Shown here in pieces: positions 25,693 through 57,936 of a stretch of 64,000 nucleotides of DNA (positions are counted from its first letter, which is position 1; each line of letters begins with the position of its first letter). Where the stretch lies: IMG/VR virus record IMGVR_UViG_3300014205_009256, positions 1 to 64,000 of that record; one strand, 5' to 3'. Below the pieces are notes generated by a model, which was given only the letters and a program-made list of their open reading frames with translations, made no database searches and was not told where the DNA came from. Position numbers and translations under genes: made by a program. This stretch comes from a virus (taxonomy: Duplodnaviria > Caudoviricetes).

Positions 25693-25695
25693 GGA

Positions 25696-26958: not shown

Positions 26959-27003
26959 AATGCGGTTCCTGCTTTTGCGTGGATCACGACGGTCTGTTGC
27001 GTG

Positions 27004-30308: not shown

Positions 30309-30913
30309 TCTGCCGCCTTGAACATTTCAGCGTAAACGGCAACGCGTGCCTTGCTCTCCCGCATCCGCTTGGCTAGCGCGAATACACGATTTGTGAGGTC
30401 CGATGGCCGAAGATGGTTGACCAACCACCGAGAGTCGAAATCAGCATTGCCCTTCGCGGAGAGATCGATCTGTAGTCGGACATCATCGTCGTCTTTCAGC
30501 GTCTCGTAAGCGGGCTTGGGGCGGCCCGGCTTGCCCTTCCGAGAGGCGGCCTGCGCCGTGTAAGCGGCCTTGATGTTGTCGCTGCCGTCGATGAACCAGA
30601 TACGGTCCCAACGCGGGCTCCAGATTGCCAGGCACAATGCGGGCTGCCGATCGACGTACATCCGGCGCAGTCCCTGGACGGTCGCGATGTGATCGGCTCC
30701 ATCGTCTTGCACGGCCTTGGCCTGAACGGGGATGGGCAACAAGTCGGTGTTTGCTCCCTCCAGAATCAAGAGGTCGATTTCGTCGTCATTCCAATATGGC
30801 TTTGCCACGTACAGACCAAAGGCCACAAGCTGGGCGGCAACACGTGCCTCGCCGGCAAGACCAGACCATGTGTTCTTGAGCGCCGGGATACGGCTGATTG
30901 GTTTAGCCATCAC
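30305..30913 (-). CDS. PD-(D/E)XK nuclease-like protein (DUF4365-like)
   Basis: G..GE..V, D.EIDL, VQAK motifs. Confidence 0.65.
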   Translation of the reverse strand: MMAKPISRIPALKNTWSGLAGEARVAAQLVAFGLYVAKPYWNDDEIDLLILEGANTDLLPIPVQAKAVQDDGADHIATVQGLRRMYVDRQPALCLAIWSPRWDRIWFIDGSDNIKAAYTAQAASRKGKPGRPKPAYETLKDDDDVRLQIDLSAKGNADFDSRWLVNHLRPSDLTNRVFALAKRMRESKARVAVYAEMFKAAE

Positions 30914-32477
30914 TCAGCCCTGCCTTTCGTAACAGCCCCGCGAGCTTGTCCTCGGCCGAGTAGGCAGCGTCTAGAGCAGTCTTCAAATCGGTGATGGCCT
31001 GGCCAACTGTCACCGTGTCGCTGGCGACTACTGGCTCGACGTAGCGGGGGATATTGAGATTGAAATCGTTGGCGCGGATGTCATCGAGCGTGACCACTTT
31101 GGCAGCGCCGGCGCTGTCGGCGTACCCCTCGTACCAGTGATAGATGCGTTCGACGTGTTCGGGCAGAAGTTCGTTCTGCTGGCGGCCCTTCTTGAACTCC
31201 CGCGATGCATCGATGAACAGGACGCGTTGGCGGCGATCTTTCGGCCGCCGCGCACGGAATACCATGATGCACGCGGCCAAGCCCGCGCCGTAGAACAGGT
31301 TTGGAGCGAGGCCGATCACGGCATCAAGGATGTCCAACTCGATGATCTTCTGGCGAATTCTTCCCTCCGCGCCCATGCGGAACAGCGCCCCGTGCGGCAG
31401 CACTACGGCCATCCGCCCCGTCTTCGGAGCCATCGACTTGATCATGTGCTGGACCCATGCGAAGTCTCCGCTTTTGCTGGGCGGCATGCCCGCGAAGTTG
31501 CGGCCATAGGGGTCGCTGGCCCAGACCTCTTCACCCCACTTCTCCAGGGAGAACGGCGGATTGGCGATCACGCAGTCGAACGTCATCAGACGGTCGCCGG
31601 CATAGAACGCCGGCTCGCGGAGCGTGTCGCCACGCACGATCTTGAAGTCCTCCACGCCGTGGAGCAGCAGGTTCATCCGAGCGATGGCCGACGTCGTGAG
31701 ATTCTTTTCCTGCCCGTACAGCTTGCCGTAGAGGGTCTTGACGTTGCCGCCCGCGGCGCGGACGTGGTGGATGGCCTCCAGCAGCATCCCGCCAGTACCG
31801 CACGCGGGGTCGTAGATCAGGTCGCGCTCCTTGGGGTCCAGGATGTTGATGAGGAGCCGGACGACCGAGCGCGGGGTGTAGAACTCCCCGGCCTTCTTGT
31901 TCGTGGCATCCGCGAACTTCTTGATCAAATACTCATAGGCCTGGCCGAGGATGTCGGCCTGTGCTTGGCGGTTGCCCAGAGAGAGACGGGAGAAGTGCTC
32001 GATCAGATCCCGGAGCAATGCATCCGACAGGCGGTCCTTGTTGGTCCAGTTGGCGTCACCGAAAATGCCGTAGAGGGTGTCGGGGTTGGCCTTCTCGATC
32101 TCGCGCAGCGCCCGCTGCAGGGCTTGGCCGATGTTGGCGGTCTTCGCCCGGACGTCACTCCAGTGGCAGCCCTCGGGAATCTGGAAGCGGTGGTTCTCCG
32201 GGAACAAGGCGAACTGCTGGTCGCCGCCCGACAGGTCCATCGCCTCGGCCAGTTCGTCGTCGTAGACGTCGGAAATGCGCTTGAAGAACAGCAGCGGGAA
32301 GATGTAGGTCTTGAAATCGGCAGCATCCACCGGACCACGAAGGATGTTGGCGGCCTCCCACAGATGGCTGGAGAGCGCCGAGAGCGTCACCTCGGCCGGA
32401 ACAGAAGCCGGTGCCGCCGGGGTCCTGCCATTGCCGTTTGTGCCCTTGGCCAAGTTGCCTGCTCCTCTCTGATTCAC
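30903..32477 (-). CDS. hsdM: type I RM methyltransferase subunit (NPPF)
   Basis: GEFYTPRSVV, YDPACGTGGML, ANPPF. Confidence 0.95.
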   Translation of the reverse strand: MNQRGAGNLAKGTNGNGRTPAAPASVPAEVTLSALSSHLWEAANILRGPVDAADFKTYIFPLLFFKRISDVYDDELAEAMDLSGGDQQFALFPENHRFQIPEGCHWSDVRAKTANIGQALQRALREIEKANPDTLYGIFGDANWTNKDRLSDALLRDLIEHFSRLSLGNRQAQADILGQAYEYLIKKFADATNKKAGEFYTPRSVVRLLINILDPKERDLIYDPACGTGGMLLEAIHHVRAAGGNVKTLYGKLYGQEKNLTTSAIARMNLLLHGVEDFKIVRGDTLREPAFYAGDRLMTFDCVIANPPFSLEKWGEEVWASDPYGRNFAGMPPSKSGDFAWVQHMIKSMAPKTGRMAVVLPHGALFRMGAEGRIRQKIIELDILDAVIGLAPNLFYGAGLAACIMVFRARRPKDRRQRVLFIDASREFKKGRQQNELLPEHVERIYHWYEGYADSAGAAKVVTLDDIRANDFNLNIPRYVEPVVASDTVTVGQAITDLKTALDAAYSAEDKLAGLLRKAGLSDG

Positions 32478-32692: not shown

Positions 32693-34107
32693 ATGAAACT
32701 TGACCAGCTTCTCAATTTCAAGCCATTGGGCTTCATCGATTCACCCATCGGCAAACTGGCTGTTTTCGCCATCTCCGTCAAGGACATGGAGTCGGTGCGC
32801 GCCAAGTCTGTCCGGGACACTGACCCTCAGGAAGTGGTTCGTCGTCTTCTCCCCTGCATCCTGCACAAAGCGGACGCGTTGAAGGACGACGGGAGCAAGC
32901 CTGACGCGCCAGGATTGACCGATGAACAGATTCGCGGCTTGCCGGCCGACGTCGTCGAGGCGGCGTTGGGGCTCTTCATCGAACACTCGGAACACCTCTA
33001 TCGGGCATTCGTCTCGAAGACGACCACCGGCGAGAAAGGTGAGCACATCACCTCCCTGGATTACGGTGACGTGCAACACCCCAAGAAGGACGGGGAGTCG
33101 AATGTCGCGTACCTCCACCGTCTCCTTGTGCTCGAGGAAGAGGAGCTGAAACGACAGTATGAGAAACTAGCGGGACCGCTGATGGGAGTGGCGCGTTTTC
33201 CGATGGCCTGGCACAGAATATAAAAAACACGCTGCTTCTCGGCGACACGATGGCCAAGGCCTATGAGGCAATGCGCGCACCCGTGATGCCTGATCTGTCT
33301 AAGCTCATTGCGAAGCCTCTGGATATCCCGCACATCTCCACGGCTCCCAGCCTGCCCTCGATAGATTACGCGGCAATGGCCAAGAGCGCCGAGGAGGCGC
33401 GCTGGGCTCCGTTTCGAGCCGTAAACCAGCGCCTCGACCAACTCATCGAATTCGCCCGAGGTTCCGGCGAGTTCGCTGTGCAGATGAATCAGACGCAGAC
33501 GCAGATTGCCGCCGAGATCAAGGCGTCAAGCGACGAATCCACGAAGATTGGCGAGGAGTCGCTGAAGGTCGCGACTGCATCCTTGAAGGTGGGGGAGGAG
33601 TCGCTGAAGGTCGGGACCGCGTCCCTGAAGATCAGCGAGGATTCGGTGAAAGCTGCCAAAGACTCGCTGAAAGTTGCACGTCTTGGATTTTGGACGACGA
33701 TAGTCGTGGTCCTCCTCACCGTGATGGGCCTTGGGATAACCGCGGCAAGCTGGTGGGGCTCAGATGGGACTGCACGCAAAGCGGACGAGCATGCTGCGGG
33801 CATCATCGGCGGACTCTCGGACCTGAAGACGGTCGTGGTGGACGAGGGGAAGGCATCCTCGCGTGGAATGACCGCGCTTCTGGATGAGCTGAAGGCGGGC
33901 CGTTTGGAGCAAAGCAAGAGGCTGGACGCAGTGCTAGCCCAACAGACGAAACTCTTCGAGTACCAGACCACCCAGCGCGCTACCGACCAGGCGATGATCG
34001 AGACCATGAGCAAACGCATCACCCAACTCGAAGAGGAGATTCGGAAACTACAGCTTCAGAGCACGTCGAGACCAGCGCAGACCGCCCCGTCGAACGCGGG
34101 AAAGTAA
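32693..34107 (+). pseudogene. probably one frameshifted gene for a coiled-coil membrane protein (ORFs 32693..33223 and 33250..34107)
   Basis: One extra T in the cgttttcc run near 33195 joins both ORFs (...ARFSDGLAQNIKNTLLLGDTMAK...); heptad repeats and a TM segment in the C-terminal part. Confidence 0.5.
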
Positions 34108-34213
34108 CACCGCAGATGGCGCGGCCGTGCTCATGCTGAGAGTGGTTCGGCTAGGGTTGCTCCAAGGGAGTTCTCCCCAATGGTACGGATCAAACGTACC
34201 GACCAGTTAACGC

Positions 34214-34250
34214 AGAACCCCGCACCAGAGAGGTCGCGGGGTTCTTGCTT
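34214..34250 (+). terminator. rho-independent terminator-like hairpin
   Basis: agaaccccgc (34214-34223) / gcggggttct (34236-34245) followed by tgctttt. Confidence 0.6.
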
Positions 34251-34481
34251 TTGGGCCAGTATTCGCAAGGGTTTACGCGCGGAGTTCGTCGCCCCGCCTA
34301 TCGTGAGATAGCGCCGAGTGCGACCGCGCGAGCGCCGATCTGCACGATCTTTTAGGGTGTGGCCCGACAACTATCAAACTATCGCCGGGGGCACCACTGC
34401 CAGTTAACAACCCGGTTGCCATCGCTCATCCGTAGCAACCCCGCAAAACCAAGCACTACCAGCGAAGTCCTCGGCAGTTTT

Positions 34482-37400
34482 CTATATCCGTTCGACTGTC
34501 GGCCCCTCGGAGCCAATGGCTGAGAACCGATAAAAAATAGCGCGGTCTCCAAAGTGGCGGAATTTCTGGCGGGCCAATTGAAATAGTTTGGCATCGCAAG
34601 TCGAGATTATAAATTGTCGCTTCTCTCGCTCGTCCTGAAGGAGTCCAAGAAGGAGATCCAAAAATGCGTATGTGTTAAGATCATCAAAGTGCGTTACAGG
34701 ATCATCCAAGAATACGGGGGCCAAACTGGACCAATTCTGAGAGATACACGCGGTCAGGAATAGACCAAGTAATAGTGTTTGCTGCTGTGACTGACTAAAG
34801 TAGTCGGTTGGGCGGTACTTCTTATTGTTGCGATTGACTTGCACCTTTATTGTGCCTTGCACACTTTCGATGTCGATATCGTCGAAACCGTACACCGCCC
34901 GAAGTCGTTGTTGGATGACTGATGCACGCGGCCCATACTCCTGTGTAAACCGAGCAATGGCTTTGTGTTGCTGCTGAGAAAGCACCTGGTGTATGGAACC
35001 GAAGTGTTGCAGCCACGGCTCTATTTTCGTCTTTTCTTTACGCAACCTCTCCACTTCAGTTTGCCGCGTTCTTATTGTATCTCGCACATTCCCCAATGCG
35101 GCAGCGGTCATGGCGGCATCTACTGCCATTTCCAAATCGCGTGTCGTGTCCCGTAGCGATTCCAGTTCTGCCTGTGTACGAGTTCGGGCACGTACAATCT
35201 CCAATATGGACTCTTCCGTCACAGGTTCCGTAAGATTGAGATCCGCAAGTCGGCCAACAAGCCGGCTCCATTTCTCTCGCAAGGTCGCATGTTGCAGACG
35301 CAACGTCGCCAATTCCTGGTCCATCGTCTTACGTTCGTCAACGCATTGACGTATCGAGCCATCTACAACCGACAAGCGGGCTTGGAGGTTCTTCACTGCC
35401 GTTCGGTGATTTGAAACGTCACTATGGGCCTGCCGTCCCTGCTCCACCAAAACAGCGTCGCCCGAATCCAATGGCGCTCGACTGAATCTCGCATCATCAG
35501 TAAGCAGCTTGATCTCATCTCGTAAAAGTATCATCCTGGCATCGTAGTCTCTGAGCGTGCGTTCCAGAGCAACGACCACATTGGCCGCGCTCTCGCACGC
35601 GGCGGCTGACTGTGCAGACTTCATTTTCGCGGTCTCGGATGATTCTCTCAGGCCAAGAAGCGTCGCCTCGTCTACAGCAATTTGGTGATGTAGCTGCGCT
35701 ATTGCTGACTGCGCTTCCCCATCAACAACAATCCCAACGGATCTGGCCGACGCCAAAATTGCGTTCGTATCAGTCTTAACTTCCATGAGGTCCGATCGCA
35801 CCGTCTCAAGTCTTTCCTCCGTCATTCTTTGCTCGTCCTTGATGCCCGTAATCTGAGCATGCATCCGCTTCACCGCCTCCGCAACCACAAGTAATTCTTC
35901 CCTAGCCGAACTCGCCTCGTCCGATTGAAGTCGCTGCGAAATACGGCTCAACAGATGATCCTTCGACTCATGCTCTTCGCCGCATAGTGGACATATCCCA
36001 TCAACTATGTGGGATTGCAGAGCCAAGAGTAAGCTTTTGAACTCGGATTGATTCTGCTCCGTTTGGGCGACCGTACGCGCTAGTATTTGCTCTTCTGATT
36101 GGGCCTTGGCAAGAAGATGGTGCAATTGATCCGCTTTCGTCGCAGCCAAATCGCGTGTAGTAATGAGAGTCTGAACAAGAGTTTCCAAACGCTTCTGTCT
36201 GTCGAGATTGGCCTGCAACCTAAGCAAATCAGTGGCAATTCTGCCTAACTGCGATAGTGCCCCCTCTTGCTTGGTGACGCGTTCTCCCATTTGCGTAACT
36301 TCACCTTGCACTCTTTGCTGATCAATCTGTGCGCGAGCCACTTCCTGTCGAGCGTTGTAAAGCTCGGCTTGAGCGCGCCCAATTGTATCTGTCAATAATT
36401 TGCGGTCCTGAAGGAATCGTGCATAATCAGATCGCTTCTCTTGGCACCAATCCCATGCTTCGGCAAGCTGCAACGCGGAAGCTAATTGCGATTGCTCATT
36501 TGACAATTGTTTTGCACACTCATCACGTTCTGTAGCCCGTTGCCGCGCATTGGCGTCGAGCGTGGAACGCCGGTGTCCGCCGTCCTTGAGATGTTCGTCA
36601 ACCCTCTTTAATTCGGCGTGAGTGTCTTTGTTCTCGGCCAGTTCATGCGAAAGTGACGAGAGACGGTCGCGATAGCTCTGCGTCTGGGCGATACGAGACT
36701 CAAGTGCTGCACGCCAACCGCGAAGCACGGTGGCATCCGGTTTCTCGTCGGGTTTTGCTATGCCTTGCTCTTGGAGTCGCCCTTGAAGTTGAGCAAGTTC
36801 ATCATCCAATGTAGCGACATTACCTGCGGCCTCTGCAGAGCGTTGCAGTTTCGCTATATTATTTTTGTCTTGTGCAATTAAGTCCTCCAGAGCCTCCAGA
36901 GCATTGCTTTTGCTGACTAGCTCGCTATTGATAACTTCTTGAACTCCGAGTGACTTGCTTAACGCATTCGTGTAATCGTCAAACGCCAGCATACGCGAAA
37001 CAATTTCCGCTGGAAGACGGCAGTCATTTTGAAACTCCCGCATAAGTTCCTGTTGCTCTTGGCTAAACAGATGTGTTGCCCGGAACAAACTAACCATGTG
37101 TTCGATTCGGCTCGAAGACTGGAGGCCGGTCACCGCTGAAAGCACCGCTTTACGATCCGCCATATTATTGTCAAGTAGGGCATTCTTTCTTTCCGCAAGT
37201 TTGCGTGACAACTTTAAAGTGTGATCCCCTTGGACAACCTGCAAATCAACAGCACCATCTTCACCAGAGGCGTCGAGATGCTGTGTTAGGCGAAGAAACC
37301 TTGCATCGTCGGCAGGTTCAAATCTCCCGATTCCGCCCGTTACCGCAAAATCAATGGCATCAAAGAAGGAAGTCTTGCCAAAACCGTTAGGGCCATACAG

Positions 37401-38111
37401 GACTGTCACAGCACTTCCAATATCAAATTCCTGTGTCTCACGGTAAGCGCGGAAGTTGCGAATGGCCACGCTCTTCAACTGAATTGGCGATGCCGTTTCA
37501 CCAACAATTTGCGGTTGTAACTCGGGAGTTGGTCCCAATGAATGCGGTTCGCCAAATTGCCCAATGAGACAGTCCTGCACGATTCGCCCTGCACTTCTAG
37601 TGTGTGGGGCAACAAGATACCTCGCCAAATCAGTGGGCATCCCATATTGATGAAGCAGTGCCAATGCGGACGGAGGACGCAACGAAACATCGTGAAGTGG
37701 TGTCAACGGCAGGAATGGCAAGCGTGACACTGATGGTGGTACGTGAGATGATAATCGCAGAACGAACTTTCGACAGAAAAATACGTCCGTCTCAATCTGC
37801 GACCACAACCGCTCAATGCCTTTGAGTTCCGGGTTTATGCAGAGCACAAAGGCCAAGTCGAATCTGTCCCACTCACCTTTGGATTCCCTGTATTTACGTT
37901 TGAATGCTCCAATCAGTGATTCGTAGCTCGCCATCAGGTCGGAGCCAGCAAATCCGAAGGCGGTCCTCAAGTACTGGGTGCTTAACAACAAGAGTGGTTG
38001 TTGCGCATCGTCCACGGCGAGCTTCTCGGTCTTTGCGCCGGGAAGAACGCTTTTCAAATGCTCCGTTAGGGCGTCTTGGGTTGCCATCGTATCACGAGGA
38101 AAGGGCGTCAT
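34482..38111 (-). CDS. Rad50/SbcC-like SMC ATPase with an extra ~200-aa N-terminal domain (LmuB-like)
   Basis: GPNGFGKTS Walker A, long coiled coil, CPLCG zinc hook, FSQSQ signature, VFLDDP Walker B. Confidence 0.88.
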   Translation of the reverse strand: MTPFPRDTMATQDALTEHLKSVLPGAKTEKLAVDDAQQPLLLLSTQYLRTAFGFAGSDLMASYESLIGAFKRKYRESKGEWDRFDLAFVLCINPELKGIERLWSQIETDVFFCRKFVLRLSSHVPPSVSRLPFLPLTPLHDVSLRPPSALALLHQYGMPTDLARYLVAPHTRSAGRIVQDCLIGQFGEPHSLGPTPELQPQIVGETASPIQLKSVAIRNFRAYRETQEFDIGSAVTVLYGPNGFGKTSFFDAIDFAVTGGIGRFEPADDARFLRLTQHLDASGEDGAVDLQVVQGDHTLKLSRKLAERKNALLDNNMADRKAVLSAVTGLQSSSRIEHMVSLFRATHLFSQEQQELMREFQNDCRLPAEIVSRMLAFDDYTNALSKSLGVQEVINSELVSKSNALEALEDLIAQDKNNIAKLQRSAEAAGNVATLDDELAQLQGRLQEQGIAKPDEKPDATVLRGWRAALESRIAQTQSYRDRLSSLSHELAENKDTHAELKRVDEHLKDGGHRRSTLDANARQRATERDECAKQLSNEQSQLASALQLAEAWDWCQEKRSDYARFLQDRKLLTDTIGRAQAELYNARQEVARAQIDQQRVQGEVTQMGERVTKQEGALSQLGRIATDLLRLQANLDRQKRLETLVQTLITTRDLAATKADQLHHLLAKAQSEEQILARTVAQTEQNQSEFKSLLLALQSHIVDGICPLCGEEHESKDHLLSRISQRLQSDEASSAREELLVVAEAVKRMHAQITGIKDEQRMTEERLETVRSDLMEVKTDTNAILASARSVGIVVDGEAQSAIAQLHHQIAVDEATLLGLRESSETAKMKSAQSAAACESAANVVVALERTLRDYDARMILLRDEIKLLTDDARFSRAPLDSGDAVLVEQGRQAHSDVSNHRTAVKNLQARLSVVDGSIRQCVDERKTMDQELATLRLQHATLREKWSRLVGRLADLNLTEPVTEESILEIVRARTRTQAELESLRDTTRDLEMAVDAAMTAAALGNVRDTIRTRQTEVERLRKEKTKIEPWLQHFGSIHQVLSQQQHKAIARFTQEYGPRASVIQQRLRAVYGFDDIDIESVQGTIKVQVNRNNKKYRPTDYFSQSQQQTLLLGLFLTACISQNWSSLAPVFLDDPVTHFDDLNTYAFLDLLLGLLQDEREKRQFIISTCDAKLFQLARQKFRHFGDRAIFYRFSAIGSEGPTVERI

Positions 38112-39882
38112 TGAACCCTCCTGATATATCGTTTGCAGTATTTGCGGTCCGAAACAGCGTCAACAGATTCTGGTAGCCAAAATGAAACATTCCGCTCCAC
38201 GGATCAGTAATGTCGCGGTCAGTTTGCACCTGCTGCGCCAGCCGCGTGAGGAAGTTGCCGTAGACTTGAAGCCATTCCGTGTTGTCAGGATCACGGGTTA
38301 CGAGAAGCATAGGTCGGTTTGGTGATAGCGCGAGTTGTTGCGCGTGCGTAATGCATTTCTCATGAGTCTGCCCGGTAACTGCGAGAACATCTACTACAAC
38401 GCCTCGAATTTCGATGGACGCGTGTACGCTACCAACACCCACCGACAACACCTCGAAGCCGACACGCAGAATATCGACTGAGTTGAGAACGTGTTGCAAA
38501 GCGCTGGATTCCGCGTCCCGCCATTCGTCTGCCGTTGCCGCTGTCGCTCCTTGGGTCGCCATCTTTATTACGTGATTTACGTCCATGGCGCTGATAGATC
38601 TCAACGACAGAACATTGCTCCCATGAGCGTCAGCGACTTGGGCCACAAGAGGCGCGTTCCCATATTGGTCCGAGAGCTTGGGAATCTCGTCAAGCTCGTC
38701 ATTAAACCATTTCACGCAGGCTGGCACCTCGGCTCCGGGCGCTCGAACATCCCGTTGACCACCCACTGGATAAACCCGTGCATACTCCAATGGCAGTGCG
38801 CGTCCTCCTGCGCCAGGAACTAGTGAGCCAGGGTTGACTAACGCGAAGGAGTGGATGCATGCACCTCCTTCACGAAAGTAATTGTCACATAACGTATTCA
38901 GTATCTCGCTGCCACCTCGATACCGCGTGCCGGCGGCGGCATAGGTTGGAACGCACGTCGGATCACAAAACCCCGAACGATTTGAGAAAACCACACTGCA
39001 ACCACCGTAGGTCGTCACACGCGATGGTTTTGGAGCGCCCGCGTTGTTTGCAAAAACGATCCCGGCTCGATCTCGCAGGGCGTTAGGAAATTGTGTCTGA
39101 TCGAAGAAACGTGTCACTTCGGTCAGGAATGCTGTATGGGATGGCTTCTTGTTGCGTTGAATGACAAAAAGCCAAGACAGAGGCAACTGGCAGCCGATCG
39201 CCTCGTCATGGATCGCCCGCAGTAACCAGTCGGGAGCTCTGAGCATATCAATAGTAGATACCCAGTCAAAGCAGATGAGCGTACCGAAGCGAAATGGTGT
39301 TTCGTTGTCCAATAGTCCCTTGAACAAGAAAATGGAATGCCCCTTAAACATGTACTGGTAGTTGGTGTCCATTTCCGGCCAAGCAGGATGCAGCTTAGGT
39401 TGAACCCATCGTTCAACAACACCTTCAGCGGATTTGATCCACGTGACTGCGCAGTTAACCCATTCATCCGTTTGAACATGAACAGGACCGTTACGACCTT
39501 CGTCAACGTGCGTATTTTCCTCATTCAGTATCTGTGTATATTCTTCGCGGGTTAGAGCGTCGACACCTCCCACCACGACAGTAGCACAGGGCCACTCTGC
39601 CTCGGAAATGGCGTCTTCAATTAATTGGATACCATCAATGCCGGGGATTGAGTATTCAGGAAATAGCGTAAAGTGTGTTTTTTCGCAATGGTGAGATGGA
39701 TTCTTGGAAATGGCCAGCACCTCTCTGATCATAGCCATCTGTTGTGGTTTTGATTCTACTGTGCAACGAAAAGGCTCCGCCGCTGTTAGTGTGACATATG
39801 GCTGCGCTACCACAACGCCAACGCGATCCGCTGGCAGTATCACGCCACGCAGGGAAAGATCGATTGTCTCGATGTGGATCAT
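38092..39882 (-). CDS. carbon-nitrogen hydrolase (nitrilase)-fold protein, putative defence effector
   Basis: Triad-like motifs LFPEYS (E), VQPKLHP (K), LICFDW (C); overlaps the ATPase gene by 20 bp. Confidence 0.7.
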   Translation of the reverse strand: MIHIETIDLSLRGVILPADRVGVVVAQPYVTLTAAEPFRCTVESKPQQMAMIREVLAISKNPSHHCEKTHFTLFPEYSIPGIDGIQLIEDAISEAEWPCATVVVGGVDALTREEYTQILNEENTHVDEGRNGPVHVQTDEWVNCAVTWIKSAEGVVERWVQPKLHPAWPEMDTNYQYMFKGHSIFLFKGLLDNETPFRFGTLICFDWVSTIDMLRAPDWLLRAIHDEAIGCQLPLSWLFVIQRNKKPSHTAFLTEVTRFFDQTQFPNALRDRAGIVFANNAGAPKPSRVTTYGGCSVVFSNRSGFCDPTCVPTYAAAGTRYRGGSEILNTLCDNYFREGGACIHSFALVNPGSLVPGAGGRALPLEYARVYPVGGQRDVRAPGAEVPACVKWFNDELDEIPKLSDQYGNAPLVAQVADAHGSNVLSLRSISAMDVNHVIKMATQGATAATADEWRDAESSALQHVLNSVDILRVGFEVLSVGVGSVHASIEIRGVVVDVLAVTGQTHEKCITHAQQLALSPNRPMLLVTRDPDNTEWLQVYGNFLTRLAQQVQTDRDITDPWSGMFHFGYQNLLTLFRTANTANDISGGFNDALSS

Positions 39883-40086
39883 TGCCAGCTGTTTCCCATG
39901 GGAAGGCGGTATCTTCAGAAAGGGAACGCCTGCCCACCTTGTTAAGTCAACACCCCCAGCTAAGTACCGCATCGCTGGTTGACAGGCATTGTAATAGGAA
40001 AACCGGTCTTTGACAGGTAGAGGGAGCGGCCCATGCTGACCAAGGGCAGGTCGTTGCGGGCGTCGCCATGCAACGGCAGCCGCTGC

Positions 40087-40320
40087 TTAGACAGACGGTT
40101 TCACGTCAACGTATTCCGCTAGGCGAAGGGCCTTTCTGATCTCGGTCCCGTATGACTCGTTGATGCCGGCCGCGATAGCGATGGTTTTGCATGCAACCCC
40201 CGCAGCTGCAATTTCCCGAGCATACTTGATGCCGAAGAGGTGGATCATGACGACATGGTCTCCATCCGGAGCATTGTGGTACATGGCGTGCAACTGAGAT
40301 GCTAATTCTTGTAAGGTCAT
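40087..40320 (-). CDS. small HTH-like protein translationally coupled to the type ISP gene
   Basis: 77 aa, MIHLFGIKYA...AGI..SY.TEI.K; ATGA overlap. Confidence 0.7.
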   Translation of the reverse strand: MTLQELASQLHAMYHNAPDGDHVVMIHLFGIKYAREIAAAGVACKTIAIAAGINESYGTEIRKALRLAEYVDVKPSV

Positions 40321-43300
40321 GCGGGTCTCTCATTCAGCGCCGGTAATGCGTTGACGATCTTCATGGTTTCGATGCTGACGCGTGTGACACGGGCGATCAG
40401 ATCGACGATGTAGCGCGGGTTGTCGTGTTCCCTGCACCAGTCGTTGGGATCGTTGACGATGCCGCTGTCCTTGTCGCGGGTGACTTGATACCGCTCCATG
40501 ATCCATTCGAGGGCGGGCTTGCCGTTGACCACATACTCATATGCCTCCAGCGGTATGTGCGAAATGGTGAGATGGCTGTTGTAGATGATCCGCGTCTTGT
40601 CGTATTTGTCACCCGCCTCTTTCTGCTCGGCACTGGGGCGGGCGAAGGTCATCTTCTTCACTTTGAAAAGCTCGTCGGGGTCGAGAGCCAGTTTGTCCAC
40701 GTTCTCCACCAGCGGCCACGGCTCGACGGTTTCGTAATTCAAATGCCACTCGGCCAGTGACCGGCCCGCCTTGCTGAATGCCCAGAAATCTTCCGTCTCT
40801 TTCGTCAGCGGAATGCGCGGCAGCATCTTCTTCAGGTCAGCCGCGAAACGCTCCCGATATTCAGGACTGTGCAGAATGCCATAGACGTAATAGAAGATGT
40901 CCTCTTTGCTCACCTTTTTGCCGTAAGCATTGCGGAACGTTTTCAGTATCCCATCCGTGATCGCATCCCGACGACGATAGCCGTCAATGATCTCGCCGTC
41001 ATCGAAGCCCAGCTTGCCGATGTCTTCGACCTTCTCGTAGAGGTAGAGGGGGAAGCATTGACCTTTTGAAATCAGTTCGTAGTCCGGCAGTGTGTCCACC
41101 ATCAACGTCGAGAACTCTTTTGTAGACCCACGGCTGTCAACGCTTATAGCAAGGTTCGGATGTCGTCCTTGAGGAAACAGCGAAGGGATGCGCGCCGGAT
41201 ATTCATTTAATGTTCTGTCATAATAAAGCCATTGCTTGGCATAAGGCCGATAGATGCTTTGAAGTGCCGCGTCAGACCGAAACTCGATTGTGTTGCCGGA
41301 TACAAGGTCGTTCTTAAGCCCGCGTGACCAAGAGATGCGTTTGGGGTCGGTACATATCGCCGAATTGATCGCATCGGCTCGCTTCGATTTATCCATGCCT
41401 ACGATAATCTCGGAAACGACTATCAAGTCGGCGGAGTATGTATCGAGCATGCGCCGTACATTGGCATTGAGCGCTTCCCTGCCGAAGTTGTAACACCACT
41501 TGTCTCTGGCCGTTAGCAGCCCTTGTGTGTAGTCAGCAAAATACGGTGTACCTGTCTCGTCGCGCTTGTTGCCCAAAGGAGTGAACAACTCGAACGCCGG
41601 ATCGCGTTGGTTGATCCAGTCGTGTTCGGGATTGGGTTTGATCTTCGTCCACTTGGCTTGCTTGGCGAGGCCGTCGATGCTGGCGAAGCGACGGATGATT
41701 TTGAGTTTTTCATCGCGGCTGAGGTAGTCGCCGATGTCGTGGTAGTGAAGTTTGCACTTGCTCTTGTGGGCGGGGTTTTTGATAAGGAGTGTGATGGCGA
41801 TGGGAGCGCGGGAGCCGGAGCCAAAGATTTTGCCGCCTTCCTGTCGGGAGGTTTCGCCGGAAGTGCGCTGATTGCCGCGCAAGTTGAAAATATAGACGCT
41901 GGTGAATTCGTCGGCGAGGCAGGCGCGGAGGCCATCCATGTTATTGGCGTCGATGAATGAGCCGTTCGTGACGAAGCCGACGACGCCCTTGTCATTGATA
42001 CGGTCGCTGGCCCAGCGGATGGCGCGGATATAGCTGTCGTATAGGTTTTTGACGTTTGGGGCGTTCGATTTGTCAGCGTAGGTTCCGCGGATCCGGGAGT
42101 CGAGGGCCGGGTAATCAAGATTGGCGTTGTCGTCGTTCGCGCTCTGCTGCTGAGCCGAGTACGGCGGATTGGCGATGACAACCCGGATGGGGCTTTGTTG
42201 CTGGCGCTTCGCGCGTTTGGAGTTTTCGGGGAAAGTGCCGGCGATCTGGCCTTGTTTGGCTTCGTAAAGTTGGAAGGTATCTGTGAGCACAATCCCCTCA
42301 AAGGGTTCGTATTGCGTCTTTTTCTCGTCCGTGGTCATCAGGCCGTGGAAGGTTTCTTCGATGTTGATGGCGGCGATGTAGTAGGCGAGGAGGACGATTT
42401 CGTTGGCGTGGAGTTCGTTCTTGTATTTGTGGAGGAGTTTGTCGGGGGGGATGAGGCCGGATTGCAGGAGGCGGACAAGGAACGTGCCGGTTCCGGTGAA
42501 GGGGTCGATGATGTGGACATCTTTTTCACCAAGCCCGGAGTTGAACTCGTCGCGGAGAATGTCCTGTACGGAATGGATGATGAAATCGACGACCTCAACG
42601 GGGGTATAGACGATGCCCAGCCGTTCGGCCATGCGGGGGAAGGCGTTCTTGAAAAACTCTTCGTACAGTTCGATGACGACTTTCTGGCGGGCTTCGGCGT
42701 TGTCCAGACCCTTGGCGCGGTCGCGGACGGATTCGTAAAACTTTTCGAGGGTGGAAGCTTCCTTCTCGATGGACTTTTCATGCAGAAGGTCCAGCATTTT
42801 CTGCATCGACTGGCTGACGGGGTTGTGGGCTGTGAAAGTGTAGTGGGCGAACAGCGCATCGAAGACGGGTTTGGTGATCGAATGCTGCGCGAGCATTTCG
42901 ATGGCATCTTCACGCGAGACGGCGGGGTTGAGGTTTTGTTGCAGACCTTGGAGAAACTCGGCGAAGGCCTGTTTATGCGGCGAATGCTTGTCGTCGATGA
43001 GTGCTTTGATGCGGGTGATATGTTGTTCGGCGATGCGGGCAATGTCACGGGCCCAGGTTTCCCAATAGGCACGGTCGCCGCACTTCTTGACCATCTTGGC
43101 GTAGATGGCGTCTTTCCATTCGTCGAGGTGGGGGAAGGCGAATGCGCCCTGAATCTCGCGGAGCTTGGGTTTGGAATCACCTGATGATTTCGGCGTGTCA
43201 GATGCCTCACGCGGGTCGCCCACGCCGATGACTTGGATGTTGTCGGGGCGGTTTCTGTTCAGTTCGATCTGGTTGATGGTGGCATTGAAGCGGTCGTCAT

Positions 43301-45266
43301 GGGCGCGAAGGGCTTGGAGGACTTGCCAGACGACTTTGTATTTCTCGTTGTTTTTGAGGGCATCTTCGGGCTTCATGTCGGCGGGGATGCCGATGGGCAG
43401 GATGATGTAGCCGAAGCGTTTGCCTTCGGCGCGACGCATGACCCGGCCGACGGATTGGACAACGTCGATGACGGAATTTCGGGGATTGAGGAACATGACC
43501 GCGTCGAGTGCGGGGACATCGACGCCTTCCGAAAGACAGCGGGCATTGGAAAGGATGCGGCAGGTGTTGGCGGGCGATTCGGCTTTGAGCCAGTCCAGTA
43601 AAGCGCCGCGTTCAAGGGCGTTGTAGGTGCCATCCACATGGTCGGCTTCGACGACAAGTAGATTGTCGGCGTCGGGGTGTTCTTCTTTGTAGGCGTCGAT
43701 GATCTGGCCAAACTTGGCGACAAAGGCCTCGGAGTCTTTGATGGAGCGTGAAAAGGCGACGGCGCGGCGCATGGGTTGGACATCGCCTTGGAAGTCAACA
43801 TCGGCGCTGGCGGCTTCAAATCGCTTTTCGAGGCCGTTCCAGCAGCCGGTGATACGGGTCGCATCGTCGAGATTGAGTTCGCTGTTTTTGTCGGCGATTT
43901 GTTTCTGGAAAGTTTCCGCAACGTATTTTTCATCTACGGCAAGGACGAGGACTTTGTAGTCGGACAGGAGGGATTTGCCGACTGCTTGACCGAATCCGAG
44001 GCGGTGGAGTTCCAGACCGAACAGGGCCGGGTCATCCATCGAGGCGAGTTCGGCGGCGGCGTCTTTGGCTTTTGATTTGGCATCGTCGCCGTAGATGCGA
44101 GGGGTGGCGGTCATGTAGAGGCGCTTGGCCGATTTGATGAAGTTCGCATCGTGGACTTTAACGAAATGGGATTCGTCTTCGCCGGTGAGAGTGACGCCGG
44201 TGGTGCGGTGGGCTTCGTCGCAGATGATGAGGTCGAAGTCGGGCAGGCCTGATTTCTGGGCTTGGGAGACGGCATCAATGGATTGGTAGGTTGAAAACAC
44301 GACGGTCATTTGTGAGTCGGCCTTGGGCTTGGCGGACTTGCTGGTGAGGATTTTGTATTGGGTGACAAGTTGCCGGGCGTTGGTGGTAGCGGGGAAGGCG
44401 AGGTCGTGGACGGTGATATCTTCGTTGTCGTCCTTGGACTTTTCACGGCGCTTGCCGATGTTGATGTCCGAGCAGACAGCGAGGGCGTGAATCGGATGCT
44501 CGGCTTCGGCGGTCCACTCGCGGAGAGATTGTGAAAGCAGAGATAGCGAGGGGACAAGGAACAGGATTCGCCCGCTGGGTGCGAGGGTTTCGGCGATCTT
44601 GAGCGACGTGAAGGTTTTGCCGGTGCCGCAGGCCATGATGAGTTTGCCTCGGTCGGCAGTGGCCAGGCCTTGGATCACATCGTCAAGCGCATGTTTCTGA
44701 TGTTCGCGGAGCTTCTTTTTGGGCAGGAGTTCGAGGTCTTGCGGGCGTTTGGCATCAAAGCGGGACCAGTTGATGGGACTTGCTTCAAGGTCGTGGATGC
44801 TCAGGCGGGTAACGGGTTTGGTCTGATGGTTGAGTGCATCTTCGGCGTTCGTTCCCCATTTGTCGGTGGTTGAGACGATGATGCCGGATGTGAACTGTTC
44901 CCGGCCCATGGCTGTGAAGAATGAGTCAATGTCGCCCTTGGCGAGGGTGTGTTCGGGGAGGTAGAACTTGCATTGGATGGCGATGTATTCACCGGTGGCG
45001 CGATCGCGTGCGACAAGGTCGATGCCAACATCGCCGACGTTGCCTTTGTCGGGCCATTCGTTCCACATCCAGACTTTGGAGAAGCGATCAGCGTAGATGG
45101 GATCGAGTTCAAAGAACCGGACCATCAGGCGTTCAAAGCGGTCGCCAAGATCGCGGTTGGTTCGTGCTTCGGTGCGGAGTTGGTCGAGGATTCTGTTGAG
45201 ATTTGTGCTCAAAGTTGCCTGCCATCCATGGTCGGGTCCATCGGTGTCACTTTCATTCATGACCAC
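40317..45266 (-). CDS. type ISP restriction-modification enzyme (LlaGI/LlaBIII-like: Mrr-like nuclease, SF2 helicase, N6-MTase, TRD)
   Basis: GIDLVA...IQCKF, MACGTGKT, DEAH, IDPFTGTG, ANPPY in one 1649-aa ORF. Confidence 0.93.
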   Translation of the reverse strand: MVMNESDTDGPDHGWQATLSTNLNRILDQLRTEARTNRDLGDRFERLMVRFFELDPIYADRFSKVWMWNEWPDKGNVGDVGIDLVARDRATGEYIAIQCKFYLPEHTLAKGDIDSFFTAMGREQFTSGIIVSTTDKWGTNAEDALNHQTKPVTRLSIHDLEASPINWSRFDAKRPQDLELLPKKKLREHQKHALDDVIQGLATADRGKLIMACGTGKTFTSLKIAETLAPSGRILFLVPSLSLLSQSLREWTAEAEHPIHALAVCSDINIGKRREKSKDDNEDITVHDLAFPATTNARQLVTQYKILTSKSAKPKADSQMTVVFSTYQSIDAVSQAQKSGLPDFDLIICDEAHRTTGVTLTGEDESHFVKVHDANFIKSAKRLYMTATPRIYGDDAKSKAKDAAAELASMDDPALFGLELHRLGFGQAVGKSLLSDYKVLVLAVDEKYVAETFQKQIADKNSELNLDDATRITGCWNGLEKRFEAASADVDFQGDVQPMRRAVAFSRSIKDSEAFVAKFGQIIDAYKEEHPDADNLLVVEADHVDGTYNALERGALLDWLKAESPANTCRILSNARCLSEGVDVPALDAVMFLNPRNSVIDVVQSVGRVMRRAEGKRFGYIILPIGIPADMKPEDALKNNEKYKVVWQVLQALRAHDDRFNATINQIELNRNRPDNIQVIGVGDPREASDTPKSSGDSKPKLREIQGAFAFPHLDEWKDAIYAKMVKKCGDRAYWETWARDIARIAEQHITRIKALIDDKHSPHKQAFAEFLQGLQQNLNPAVSREDAIEMLAQHSITKPVFDALFAHYTFTAHNPVSQSMQKMLDLLHEKSIEKEASTLEKFYESVRDRAKGLDNAEARQKVVIELYEEFFKNAFPRMAERLGIVYTPVEVVDFIIHSVQDILRDEFNSGLGEKDVHIIDPFTGTGTFLVRLLQSGLIPPDKLLHKYKNELHANEIVLLAYYIAAINIEETFHGLMTTDEKKTQYEPFEGIVLTDTFQLYEAKQGQIAGTFPENSKRAKRQQQSPIRVVIANPPYSAQQQSANDDNANLDYPALDSRIRGTYADKSNAPNVKNLYDSYIRAIRWASDRINDKGVVGFVTNGSFIDANNMDGLRACLADEFTSVYIFNLRGNQRTSGETSRQEGGKIFGSGSRAPIAITLLIKNPAHKSKCKLHYHDIGDYLSRDEKLKIIRRFASIDGLAKQAKWTKIKPNPEHDWINQRDPAFELFTPLGNKRDETGTPYFADYTQGLLTARDKWCYNFGREALNANVRRMLDTYSADLIVVSEIIVGMDKSKRADAINSAICTDPKRISWSRGLKNDLVSGNTIEFRSDAALQSIYRPYAKQWLYYDRTLNEYPARIPSLFPQGRHPNLAISVDSRGSTKEFSTLMVDTLPDYELISKGQCFPLYLYEKVEDIGKLGFDDGEIIDGYRRRDAITDGILKTFRNAYGKKVSKEDIFYYVYGILHSPEYRERFAADLKKMLPRIPLTKETEDFWAFSKAGRSLAEWHLNYETVEPWPLVENVDKLALDPDELFKVKKMTFARPSAEQKEAGDKYDKTRIIYNSHLTISHIPLEAYEYVVNGKPALEWIMERYQVTRDKDSGIVNDPNDWCREHDNPRYIVDLIARVTRVSIETMKIVNALPALNERPA

Positions 45267-45664: not shown

Positions 45665-46168
45665 ATGACGATGACTATGAAAAGCGAACTGGCGGCCCTG
45701 GTGCAGATGACGCCGCGTCAGCTCCGCGACAAATACATGGAACTGTTCGGCGAACCCAGCCGGTCGGGCAACAAAGATTTCCTGCGCAAACGACTGGCCT
45801 GGCGGCTGCAATCGCTGGCCGAGGGCACGCTATCTGAGCGGGCACGGCAGCGGGCGGTGGAATTGGCCCATCATGCCGACATTCGTATGACGATGCCACG
45901 TCCGCCGCAGACCACCGCCGGTGCGGCCACAACGACCAAAACCGCCCCGACGCGCCGTGACGAACGTGTGCCCATTCCCGGCACCGAATTGACTCGCGAA
46001 TACAAGGGGCGTTTGATCACCGTCATGGTGCTGGCCAAGGGGTTTGAGTGGGATGGCAAGGTGTACCGGTCCCTCAGCGCCGTGGCCAAGGCGGTGACCG
46101 GGTCGCATTGGAGCGGCCACCTGTTCTTCAACCTGAGCAATGGAGTGTGCGATGTCGAAAAAGCGTAA
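45665..46168 (+). CDS. DUF2924 domain protein
   Basis: LR.KY.ELFGE...L..RLAWRLQ; PGT.L.REYKG; G..Y.SLSAVA..VTG.HWSG..FF. Confidence 0.9.
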   Translation: MTMTMKSELAALVQMTPRQLRDKYMELFGEPSRSGNKDFLRKRLAWRLQSLAEGTLSERARQRAVELAHHADIRMTMPRPPQTTAGAATTTKTAPTRRDERVPIPGTELTREYKGRLITVMVLAKGFEWDGKVYRSLSAVAKAVTGSHWSGHLFFNLSNGVCDVEKA

Positions 46169-54951: not shown

Positions 54952-55094
54952 TCATCGAAGCCACGCCGGGCATCAGCCAGGCGCTGACGCAGGTGTTCGG
55001 CGCGTACATCCGTCAGGAATTTGGGGCCGACGCCATCAACCCGGTTAGGTCATCTGCCGTGAATGCACCGGCACTTATAGGAGCGTGCCGATGA
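54789..55094 (+). CDS. conserved hypothetical protein
   Basis: 101 aa, GGAG RBS, ATGA-type coupling to the primase. Confidence 0.7.
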   Translation: MQTTITRFTFGNAVPMAEVEATLRLSLLAITSMFGDDRVRSEVSITVDSEERFLIIEATPGISQALTQVFGAYIRQEFGADAINPVRSSAVNAPALIGACR

Positions 55095-57568: not shown

Positions 57569-57632
57569 ATATGAAAGTAATAGTAAATATGGAGACGGGC
57601 GGAAACACACTCGCCAGACTCGCAGAGTCGCA
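57510..57632. repeat. 24-bp inverted repeat around an AT-rich core, putative origin of element 2
   Basis: 57510-57533 and 57609-57632 match 23/24 as inverted repeats; built from CGACTCTG units. Confidence 0.65.
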
Positions 57633-57936
57633 GAACCCATCGTTAGCGCCCCCGTCGCGGCACGTTGGCGCACGGGGCGCAAGGGCGCGCAGGTCGGCCT
57701 GCGCGGCCATCCGGGGCCCACCACAGACAGGGGCCAACGTGGGCCAAAAATGCCGTAAATACGGCTACATATCGAGATATTACGATATATTTCTGATTAA
57801 ATGACAAAATGATAAGTCTATATGTAATAGGTACTTGGAAACACTTTTTGCCTCCTGACGCCAGCGGGAACGCCAACCGCGTTAGACAGACTTTCTTGAG
57901 GCAATAAAAAAATATCTCTTTCTTTCTGGCAAACTT

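What the first reader, a model, noticed from the sequence alone, without database searches (positions are those of the whole stretch)
34482..39882. Two-gene Lamassu/ABC-3C-like system: nitrilase-fold effector plus Rad50-like ATPase with fused extra domain
The ATPase core starts only at about residue 208 (IQLKSVAIRNFRAY). The preceding domain (37485-38111, with IETDVFFCRKFVL) resembles ABC-3C middle components (LmuC-like), suggesting an LmuC-LmuB fusion. The coupled upstream gene has an intact E-K-C nitrilase triad plus a C-terminal extension. An amidase-type effector with unknown substrate in a fused architecture is unusual.
Basis: partly seen in the sequence, partly recalled or inferred. Interest (0 to 1): 0.7.

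Follow-up and report, generated by a model that had tools for sequence, protein, structure and literature searches.

The report
Two-gene Lamassu system, nitrilase-type effector
These two overlapping genes are an intact but ordinary copy of an already catalogued, never tested kind of Lamassu anti-phage system. A Rad50-like DNA-sensing ATPase carries its usual small partner protein fused to its front end and is paired with an amide-cleaving (nitrilase-fold) killing enzyme whose target is unknown.

Summary

- **lmuA** (38092-39882, minus strand, 596 aa) and **lmuB** (34482-38111, minus strand, 1209 aa) overlap by 20 nt. Both match dedicated full-length PADLOC Lamassu models: LmuA 645 bits, LmuB 1013 bits.
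- **Effector:** LmuA residues 16-360 have the nitrilase/C-N hydrolase fold (Z 16-18). The family-invariant residues E76, K163, E170 and C204 align with the catalytic residues of genuine CN_hydrolases. Pfam's own model does not detect the domain.
- **Fusion:** LmuB residues 1-190 are a fused long-type LmuC. All 30 homologues tested hit Pfam MComp1, the family that also holds the LmuC of the validated Bacillus cereus B4077 Lamassu.
- **Architecture:** the fused two-gene layout is the rule for this family. I found it in more than 30 loci across many phyla, and nothing else is conserved around them.
- **Setting:** this copy lies in a low-GC defence island, next to a Type ISP enzyme and a Type I R-M/AIPR operon, inside a provirus record from a landfill metagenome.
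- **Mechanism (inferred):** LmuB with its fused LmuC holds LmuA as an inactive monomer. Sensing DNA ends releases LmuA, which oligomerises and becomes active. The substrate is unknown.

This scan has already found and worked up the same kind on other DNA several times. Verdict: new member of a known kind.

The parts
38092..39882 (-). lmuA, the effector gene (596 aa including the stop codon). The longer ORF reaching 39972 is probably not used.
   Evidence: PADLOC LmuA PDLC03850, 645 bits, residues 31-624 of the long ORF against positions 1-603 of 604. At least 329 homologous clusters, about 600 aa each, start at MxHVETVDL.
38731..39882 (-). LmuA N-terminal nitrilase/C-N hydrolase-fold domain (residues 1-384). 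Catalytic candidates: E76 (39655-39657), K163 (39394-39396), E170 (39373-39375), C204 (39271-39273).
   Evidence: AF2 model, mean pLDDT 83. Foldseek against PDB aliphatic amidases, AmiF and Nit2, E 6e-8 to 1e-5. VIA-align Z 16-18 over residues 16-360. Global hhalign against 14 PF00795 domains, Prob 88.7, E 2.9e-7, with the four residues in the catalytic columns. Residues invariant in 38 sequences. Coordinates checked.
38095..38730 (-). LmuA C-terminal domain (residues 385-596): helices, a beta-sheet and a poorly modelled loop that contains conserved acidic residues. Presumed to dock onto LmuB and to drive oligomerisation.
   Evidence: Matches only the C-terminal part of its own PADLOC model, positions 387-603. 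No Pfam hit. Secondary structure. Its role is inferred from Lamassu structures.
38092..38111 (-). 20-nt overlap between the lmuA stop codon and the lmuB start codon (translational coupling).
   Evidence: Sequence. Most homologous loci show a similar short overlap, about 14-40 nt.
34482..38111 (-). lmuB, a long Rad50/SbcC-like ABC ATPase with a fused N-terminal LmuC-like domain (1209 aa).
   Evidence: PADLOC LmuB PDLC03861, 1013 bits, residues 9-1209 against positions 8-1211 of 1213. Pfam AAA_23 and SMC_N over 212-1185.
37542..38111 (-). Fused middle-component (MC1, long-type LmuC) domain, LmuB residues 1-190, followed by a low-confidence linker to residue 209. Conserved motifs ETDVxFCRKF and RLPFLPL...RP.
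   Evidence: Pfam MComp1 PF20289: 24.7 bits here (cut-off 27.3), hit by 30 of 30 homologues with best E 7.6e-8, and 31.3 bits in the Bradyrhizobium homologue. The B. cereus B4077 LmuC scores 52.4 bits for MComp1, and its motif aligns to ours. The domain is found almost only at the N-terminus of proteins of about 1200 aa.
37371..37394 (-). Walker A motif GPNGFGKT (LmuB residues 240-247).
   Evidence: Motif G-x-N-G-x-G-K-T-S; G240, N242, G243, G245, K246, T247 and S248 are invariant in 33 family members.
35982..35993 (-). Zinc-hook CPLC (LmuB residues 707-710) at the apex of the coiled coil.
   Evidence: CxxC invariant in 33 family members. A single CxxC is typical of long LmuB and SbcC.
34593..34802 (-). 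C-terminal head motifs of LmuB: signature-like YFSQSQQ (1104-1110), Walker B PVFLDD (1132-1137, with Asp where the catalytic Glu normally sits), and ISTCD (1169-1173, with Cys at the H-loop position).
   Evidence: S-x-S-Q, DD and STC are invariant in 33 family members. The assignment rests on motif order and spacing, not on a solved structure; a PDB sequence search of this part gave nothing.
39988..40016 (-). Sigma-70-like promoter candidate CTGTCA-17-TACAAT, about 105 nt upstream of lmuA.
   Evidence: Consensus scan only: 7 sites found against 4.9 expected in the region, so this is weak evidence.

Best explanation
This is an intact two-gene Lamassu (ABC-3C) defence module of the long type.

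Shown here:
- LmuB is a Rad50/SbcC-like ABC ATPase with long coiled coils and a CxxC zinc hook.
- Its usual small partner, LmuC (Pfam MComp1), is fused to its N-terminus.
- LmuA combines a nitrilase-superfamily domain, with a complete Glu-Lys-Glu-Cys catalytic set, and a family-specific C-terminal domain.
- The two genes overlap and travel together as a self-contained cassette.

Inferred from solved short Lamassu complexes and from nitrilase enzymology:
- In uninfected cells a LmuB dimer, with its fused LmuC domains, holds LmuA by its C-terminal domain as an inactive monomer.
- When LmuB meets free DNA ends or replication intermediates of a phage or plasmid, ATP-dependent rearrangement releases LmuA.
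- Released LmuA oligomerises. Nitrilase-fold enzymes are active only as oligomers, so assembly would switch on C-N bond hydrolysis of an essential amide-bearing molecule, either a metabolite or a protein side chain.
- The result would be growth arrest or death of the infected cell (abortive infection).

The substrate is unknown.
For: - Full-length PADLOC LmuA and LmuB matches.
- Nitrilase fold and catalytic residues.
- MComp1/LmuC homology of the fused domain.
- Conserved Walker A, Q-loop, zinc hook and signature motif.
- The same two-gene arrangement, with the gene ends overlapping or abutting, in more than 30 loci from Acidobacteriota, Nitrospira, Verrucomicrobiota, Pseudomonadota, Omnitrophota and others, with no other conserved neighbour.
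- Location in a low-GC defence island beside a Type ISP enzyme and a Type I R-M/AIPR operon.
- Sequestration of monomeric LmuA, DNA-end sensing and activation by oligomerisation are shown for short Cap4-type Lamassu (PMC12663957; bioRxiv 10.1101/2025.03.14.643221 and 10.1101/2025.06.23.660979).
- Oligomerisation is required for nitrilase activity, and a nitrilase domain serves as an abortive-infection effector in DRT1 (PMC13275509).
Against: - No member of this subtype has been shown to defend. I found no such test in the library, and the Lamassu entries I read in the test table of Millman et al. are hydrolase-protease and Mrr types.
- All mechanistic structures are of short Lamassu. In long Lamassu, LmuA and LmuC are predicted to bind near the LmuB heads, so the geometry of sequestration may differ.
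- The Walker B catalytic position is Asp and the H-loop position is Cys throughout the family. ATP turnover may therefore be slow or used differently.
- The nitrilase domain is too divergent for Pfam CN_hydrolase, so its chemistry could be atypical.
- No expression data are available.
Confidence: 0.85

Rival explanations
1. The module is a housekeeping DNA-repair or chromosome-maintenance complex, an SbcC/Rad50-like ATPase with an accessory amidase, and not an immune system.
For: LmuB resembles SbcC/Rad50 in length, zinc hook and motifs. Long Lamassu is proposed to descend from SbcCD.
Against: - There is no SbcD/Mre11 nuclease partner.
- Distribution is sporadic: 46 loci among the species genomes scanned, spread over many phyla with no conserved neighbours.
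- GC is 51-52% against 59-65% in the flanks.
- The module sits among R-M systems in a provirus record.
- Both proteins match dedicated Lamassu models over their full length.
Confidence: 0.03
2. It is a Lamassu system, but the nitrilase-fold domain does not kill by hydrolysis. It could act as an acyl- or amido-transferase, as Lnt does within the same superfamily, that modifies a target. It could make a toxic product, or it could serve mainly as an oligomerisation scaffold.
For: The nitrilase superfamily includes N-acyltransferases (established knowledge). The domain is not detected by Pfam CN_hydrolase. The DRT1 authors also consider an unorthodox, toxin-generating route.
Against: The complete Glu-Lys-Glu-Cys set is invariant across the family. 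The closest folds are soluble amidases, Nit2 and the glutaminase domains of NAD synthetase, not Lnt.
Confidence: 0.1
3. The system acts mainly against plasmids or competing mobile elements on behalf of the prophage-like element that carries it, not as a general anti-phage abortive-infection system.
For: The type II Lamassu DdmABC eliminates plasmids. The window is an IMG/VR provirus record with two phage-like replication modules.
Against: This differs from the best explanation only in the target spectrum. No other IMG/VR contig, sequenced phage or plasmid record carries the family, so carriage by mobile elements is not typical of it.
Confidence: 0.02

Closest known systems
Long-type Lamassu (LmuA-LmuC-LmuB) as classified in PNAS 2025 (PMC12663957). 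The validated example is the hydrolase-protease system of Bacillus cereus B4077 (Millman et al. 2022 preprint, 10.1101/2022.05.11.491447).
   Same: The SMC part of LmuB is about 1000 aa with a single CxxC zinc hook. The LmuC is of the MComp1 family. LmuA is an N-terminal enzyme domain plus a larger mixed alpha/beta C-terminal domain. The gene order effector - MC - ATPase is kept.
   Different: Here LmuC is fused to LmuB, giving two genes instead of three or four. The effector is nitrilase-fold, which is not among the effector domains listed in that classification. Walker B reads DD and the H-loop position is Cys, whereas that paper describes standard Walker motifs for long LmuB.
PADLOC-DB v2.0.0 Lamassu models PDLC03850 (LmuA, 604 positions) and PDLC03861 (LmuB, 1213 positions)
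   Same: Both window proteins match end to end, at 645 and 1013 bits. The LmuB model includes the fused N-terminal domain.
   Different: None in architecture. The window proteins are divergent members, at most 54% identical to any other LmuA found. From memory only, DefenseFinder may call this subtype 'Lamassu-Amidase'.
Short Lamassu: V. cholerae DdmABC, the Salmonella LmuACB complex and the type I Bacillus LmuAB
   Same: The logic is the same: an SMC-like sensor plus an effector that is held inactive and then released. The two-gene type I also lacks a separate lmuC.
   Different: Short LmuB is about 600 aa. Type I lost LmuC, whereas here it is fused. The effector there is a Cap4 nuclease that tetramerises to cut DNA. 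Here the effector is an amidase-type enzyme with no predicted action on DNA.
DRT1 (class 3 UG/Abi reverse transcriptase fused to a nitrilase domain; PMC13275509)
   Same: It uses a nitrilase-superfamily domain with the catalytic tetrad as the abortive-infection effector. Activity is tied to oligomeric state, and the substrate is unknown.
   Different: The sensor is a reverse transcriptase that makes protein-primed DNA, not an SMC-like ATPase. The nitrilase domain is fused to the sensor and is not a separate, released subunit.
SbcCD / Rad50-Mre11
   Same: An ABC ATPase head split by long coiled coils with a CxxC zinc hook, which recognises DNA ends. Long LmuC is reported to resemble the SbcD C-terminal domain.
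   Different: There is no Mre11/SbcD phosphoesterase. The partner is an amidase-fold protein. I did not recover an SbcD match for the fused domain.

Membership tests
Lamassu / ABC-3C defence systems | SMC/Rad50-like ABC ATPase (LmuB) with a split head, coiled coil and Walker A | tested here: met
   Pfam AAA_23 and SMC_N over 212-1185. PADLOC LmuB models, best 1013 bits over the full length. Walker A, Q-loop and CxxC conserved.
Lamassu / ABC-3C defence systems | Adjacent LmuA: a variable N-terminal effector domain plus a C-terminal domain, in the same operon | tested here: met
   PADLOC LmuA PDLC03850, 645 bits over the full length. 20-nt overlap with lmuB. The pairing is conserved in more than 30 loci.
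Lamassu / ABC-3C defence systems | Middle component (LmuC/MC) | tested here: met
   Present as an N-terminal fusion. Pfam MComp1 is hit by 30 of 30 homologues and is above the cut-off in the Bradyrhizobium homologue. The window copy itself scores 24.7 bits, below the 27.3 cut-off.
Lamassu / ABC-3C defence systems | Protection against phage or plasmids that depends on the ATPase and the effector | not testable with these tools
   I found no experimental report for this subtype.
Long-type Lamassu (PMC12663957) | Long LmuB (about 1000 aa SMC part), a single CxxC, and long-type LmuC and LmuA C-terminal domain | tested here: met
   The SMC part is 1000 aa (residues 210-1209). There is one invariant CxxC. 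Long-LmuB PADLOC models PDLC03865 and PDLC03868 align from residue 208-212. The LmuC is of the same Pfam family as that of B. cereus B4077. Homology of the LmuA C-terminal domain to other long C-terminal domains was not shown.
Long-type Lamassu (PMC12663957) | Standard Walker B (hhhhDE) | tested here: not met
   The family-invariant motif is hhhDD, and Cys occupies the H-loop position. The assignment is by motif position only.
Nitrilase (C-N hydrolase) superfamily | Alpha-beta-beta-alpha sandwich fold | tested here: met
   Foldseek gives 151 PDB matches with E <= 1e-3; every match listed is a C-N hydrolase. VIA-align Z 16-18 with 217-259 aligned residues.
Nitrilase (C-N hydrolase) superfamily | Catalytic Glu-Lys-Cys triad, plus a second Glu, in the canonical motifs | tested here: met
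   E76, K163, E170 and C204 are invariant and align with the PE, RK, E and CxD columns of 14 PF00795 domains.
Nitrilase (C-N hydrolase) superfamily | Sequence match to Pfam CN_hydrolase PF00795 | tested here: not met
   No hit at E <= 1 for any of 38 members. PF00795 searches of three genomes that carry the module did not pick up their LmuA genes. I therefore treat it as a distant, unclassified branch of the superfamily.
Nitrilase (C-N hydrolase) superfamily | Amidase, nitrilase or carbamoylase activity | not testable with these tools
   This needs an enzyme assay.
SbcCD / Rad50-Mre11 repair complex | Partner Mre11/SbcD phosphoesterase nuclease | tested here: not met
   There is no metallophosphatase gene in or next to the operon. 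The fused domain gave no SbcD match, which is inconclusive for the reported similarity to the SbcD C-terminal domain.

The most novel reading that the evidence does not exclude
The nitrilase-fold LmuA, once released and assembled, may carry out an immune chemistry not yet described. One possibility is deamidation or C-N hydrolysis of an essential amide-bearing cofactor or metabolite, for example the carboxamide of NAD+, or glutamine or asparagine. Another is deamidation of a protein side chain. The same unknown substrate might be shared with the nitrilase domain of DRT1 and with nitrilase-like domains fused to STAND NTPases. In addition, the family-invariant Asp at the Walker B catalytic position and Cys at the H-loop position may make this LmuB a one-shot ATP-binding switch instead of a cycling ATPase.
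Probability: 0.3. Interest if true: 0.7.

Novelty: new member of a known kind. Interest (0 to 1): 0.33.

Why it matters
This locus adds another intact, divergent example of a Lamassu subtype that detection tools already recognise, so its value as a discovery is small. The subtype does carry an open question. Nobody knows what a nitrilase-type effector destroys when a bacterial immune system fires, and the DRT1 authors ask the same question (PMC13275509). A two-gene cassette with a separable effector, activated by oligomerisation, would be a convenient system for finding that substrate. The fusion also gives natural evidence that long-type LmuC works in cis with the LmuB head.

Tried and rejected
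- **Pfam and NCBIfam on LmuA:** no hit, even at E <= 1 for 38 members. A PDB sequence profile search of LmuA gave only noise.
- **Other PADLOC models:** no other LmuA model matches the LmuA C-terminal domain, and no LmuC model matches the fused domain.
- **Fold of the fused domain:** Foldseek found nothing at E <= 1e-3. VIA-align's best matches are restriction-endonuclease-like folds at Z 7-8, which is the background level. Neither SbcD nor a solved LmuC was recovered. This shows neither presence nor absence of that relationship.
- **Free-standing relatives of the fused domain:** phmmer against 1.84 billion representatives gave 232 hits. Nearly all lie at the N-terminus of proteins of about 1200 aa, and the short hits I inspected are truncated or frameshifted fragments. 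Pfam MComp1 was found in 1 of 301 Alphaproteobacteria genomes sampled, and that hit is the fused form.
- **ESM Atlas on the LmuA C-terminal domain:** no usable hit.
- **C-terminal head of LmuB against PDB sequences:** noise only.
- **Other collections:** no LmuA relative in PLSDB plasmids, INPHARED phages or other IMG/VR contigs.
- **Sequencing runs:** no RNA holder is listed. The one DNA holder is a landfill metagenome that may be the source of this DNA.
- **Literature:** the name 'Lamassu-Amidase' was not found in the library. The ABC-3C paper (NAR 2020, PMC7544218) is not held. The supplements of PMC12663957 are not held.
- **tRNA genes:** none in the window.


Full report
**Observation**

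The region 34482-39972 holds two long minus-strand ORFs. The downstream one (34482-38111) encodes 1209 aa. The upstream ORF is open to 39972. However, the PADLOC model and all homologues start at the ATG at 39882, which gives a 596-aa protein. The lmuA stop and the lmuB start overlap by 20 nt (38092-38111). GC content is 51-52% in the two genes, 56% in the neighbouring Type ISP gene and 59-65% in the flanks. The cassette therefore looks acquired.

**Identity**

PADLOC-DB v2.0.0 has dedicated models for both proteins. LmuA model PDLC03850 scores 645 bits over positions 1-603 of 604. LmuB model PDLC03861 scores 1013 bits over positions 8-1211 of 1213, so the model includes the extra N-terminal domain. 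Other long-LmuB models (PDLC03865, PDLC03868) begin to align only at residue 208-212. Pfam AAA_23 and SMC_N cover 212-1185.

**The effector**

LmuA has no Pfam or NCBIfam hit. None of 38 homologues hits CN_hydrolase even at E <= 1, and a PDB sequence profile search gives nothing. The fold is nevertheless clear.

- An AlphaFold2 model built on a 38-sequence alignment has mean pLDDT 83 and pTM 0.82.
- Foldseek matches aliphatic amidases, the formamidase AmiF, Nit2 and the glutaminase domains of NAD synthetase at E 6e-8 to 1e-5. There are 151 matches at E <= 1e-3.
- VIA-align gives Z 16-18 over model residues 16-360, and 202 chains reach Z >= 8.
- E76 (LFPEYS), K163 (VQPKLHP), E170 and C204 (LICFDW) are invariant in the family.
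- A global profile-profile alignment of the N-terminal 384 columns against 14 genuine PF00795 domains has Prob 88.7 and E 2.9e-7. I took those domains from three genomes that also carry the module. The alignment places the four residues on the PE, RK, E and C-x-D catalytic columns.

The intact-triad claim therefore holds. The domain is a distant, unclassified branch of the nitrilase superfamily.

Residues 385-596 form a helix-and-sheet domain with a poorly modelled loop rich in conserved acidic residues. This domain matches only its own PADLOC model. That description resembles the one given for long-type LmuA C-terminal domains, but I could not show homology.

**The fused domain**

LmuB residues 1-190 hit Pfam MComp1 (ABC-3C Middle Component 1) at 24.7 bits, just under the 27.3-bit cut-off. 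Three further results support the assignment.

- All 30 homologous N-terminal domains hit MComp1 at E <= 1, with best E 7.6e-8.
- The Bradyrhizobium homologue scores 31.3 bits, above the cut-off, inside a 1209-aa open frame.
- A 75-residue stretch of the free-standing LmuC of the validated B. cereus B4077 long Lamassu scores 52.4 bits for MComp1. I copied it from supplementary file 11 of the Millman et al. preprint. Its IEQNKYSSRKLVI aligns to our IETDVFFCRKFVL.

The domain is therefore a long-type LmuC fused in gene order to LmuB. A phmmer search of 1.84 billion representative proteins found it almost only at the N-terminus of proteins of about 1200 aa. The short hits I inspected run into Walker A or end in frameshifted tails, so they are fragments.

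The model of this domain has pLDDT 80. It gives only borderline matches, at Z 7-8, and these are dominated by restriction-endonuclease-like folds.

**LmuB motifs**

I examined motif conservation in 33 family members.

- Walker A, the Q-loop Gln, the CxxC zinc hook (707-710) and an S-x-S-Q signature are invariant.
- Walker B reads hhhDD, with Asp where the catalytic Glu usually sits.
- The H-loop position is an invariant Cys (STCD).

This differs from the standard Walker motifs reported for long LmuB. It suggests slow or single-turnover ATP use. That reading is an inference from motif positions.

**Distribution and context**

LmuA has at least 329 homologous clusters at 90% identity, all unannotated. 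In the species-representative genomes, 46 loci were found, in Acidobacteriota, Nitrospira, Verrucomicrobiota, Alpha-, Beta- and Gammaproteobacteria, Omnitrophota and others. In more than 30 of them, a gene of about 600 aa is followed by a gene of 1204-1224 aa whose start overlaps or abuts it. None of the window's neighbouring genes recurs in those loci. The two genes are therefore the whole mobile unit. No relative was found in plasmid, phage or other IMG/VR records.

The window itself is an IMG/VR provirus record of 78 kb, and its DNA is held by a landfill metagenome run. On the upstream side of the cassette lies a Type ISP restriction-modification enzyme (40317-45266). On the downstream side lies a Type I R-M operon with an AIPR/AbiU-like gene (22804-32477). 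A DUF2924 gene plus a large serine recombinase sits at 45665-47726. Two inverted phage-like replication modules lie at the two ends of the window.

**Mechanism**

- *Shown for short Cap4-type Lamassu.* LmuB2-LmuC sequesters monomeric LmuA through its C-terminal domain. DNA ends are sensed, and released LmuA tetramerises into the active nuclease.
- *Shown for nitrilases and for DRT1.* Oligomeric assembly is required for activity. A nitrilase domain can be an abortive-infection effector, and its substrate is still unknown.
- *Inferred here.* The same sequester-release-assemble logic switches on an amidase-type activity against an essential amide-bearing target.
- *Leads only.* ESM Atlas look-alikes of the effector domain include clusters that carry the Pfam family CTD3 (PF20395), a reverse transcriptase, or nSTAND3 plus PUA. 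These hint that the same effector module is reused in other conflict systems.

**Novelty**

The architecture is already encoded in PADLOC models dated 2023, so the type is catalogued. I found no experimental test of it and no discussion of it in the Lamassu papers held. Earlier notes of this scan describe follow-ups of the same two-gene nitrilase Lamassu on at least four other genomes, with the same conclusion. My results on this DNA agree with them independently. Verdict: a new, divergent member (at most 54% identity) of a known but untested kind.

Noticed in passing
window 40087-40320 (-): A 77-aa gene matches Pfam HTH_73 (PF24718) strongly, at 97 bits. Its ATG overlaps the stop codon of the Type ISP gene (ATGA), so it appears translationally coupled to the restriction enzyme. 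It has no PADLOC match and is absent from the other Lamassu loci.
   Followed up: partly
window 40317-45266 (-): A complete single-polypeptide Type ISP restriction-modification enzyme (Mrr_cat_2, ResIII/helicase, ISP coupler, N6_Mtase, Type_ISP_C) lies directly upstream of the Lamassu genes. Its GC skew is strongly positive on the plus strand.
   Followed up: partly
window 22804-32477 (-): A Type I R-M operon with two hsdM genes, hsdS and hsdR. An embedded AIPR-domain gene (27004-28878) matches the PADLOC AbiU model. There is also an unannotated 202-aa ORF (30305-30913).
   Followed up: partly
window 6111-10974 (-) and 55085-59872 (+): Two inverted copies of a phage-like replication module, a Prim-Pol protein plus a ParB_N-DNA methylase fusion, flank the defence island. 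A DUF2924 gene plus a large serine recombinase sits at 45665-47726. The record is classed as a provirus, and no tRNA gene is present in the window.
   Followed up: partly
window 34593-34718 (-), LmuB residues 1132-1173: Across the family, the Walker B catalytic position is Asp (DD instead of DE) and the H-loop position is Cys. This departs from the standard motifs reported for long LmuB and may mean altered ATP hydrolysis.
   Followed up: partly
window 37542-38111 (-), LmuB residues 1-147: The MComp1-like domain model gives its best structural matches to restriction-endonuclease-like folds (NucS, the FokI cleavage domain, N.BspD6I, Can2, NucC), but only at Z 7-8, the background level. The canonical nuclease motif positions are not conserved.
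   Followed up: partly
window 33250-34107 (+): A 285-aa ORF of unknown function lies at the boundary where GC drops. It has only weak membrane-protein-like Pfam hits and no PADLOC match. A 79-aa ORF (34131-34370, minus strand) downstream of lmuB also has no match.
   Followed up: partly
LmuA residues 1-384 (window 38731-39882): ESM Atlas look-alikes of the effector domain include stand-alone proteins of 314-432 aa. They also include clusters fused to the Pfam family CTD3 (PF20395), to a reverse transcriptase, or to nSTAND3 plus PUA. This suggests the divergent nitrilase module is shared among several conflict systems.
   Followed up: no
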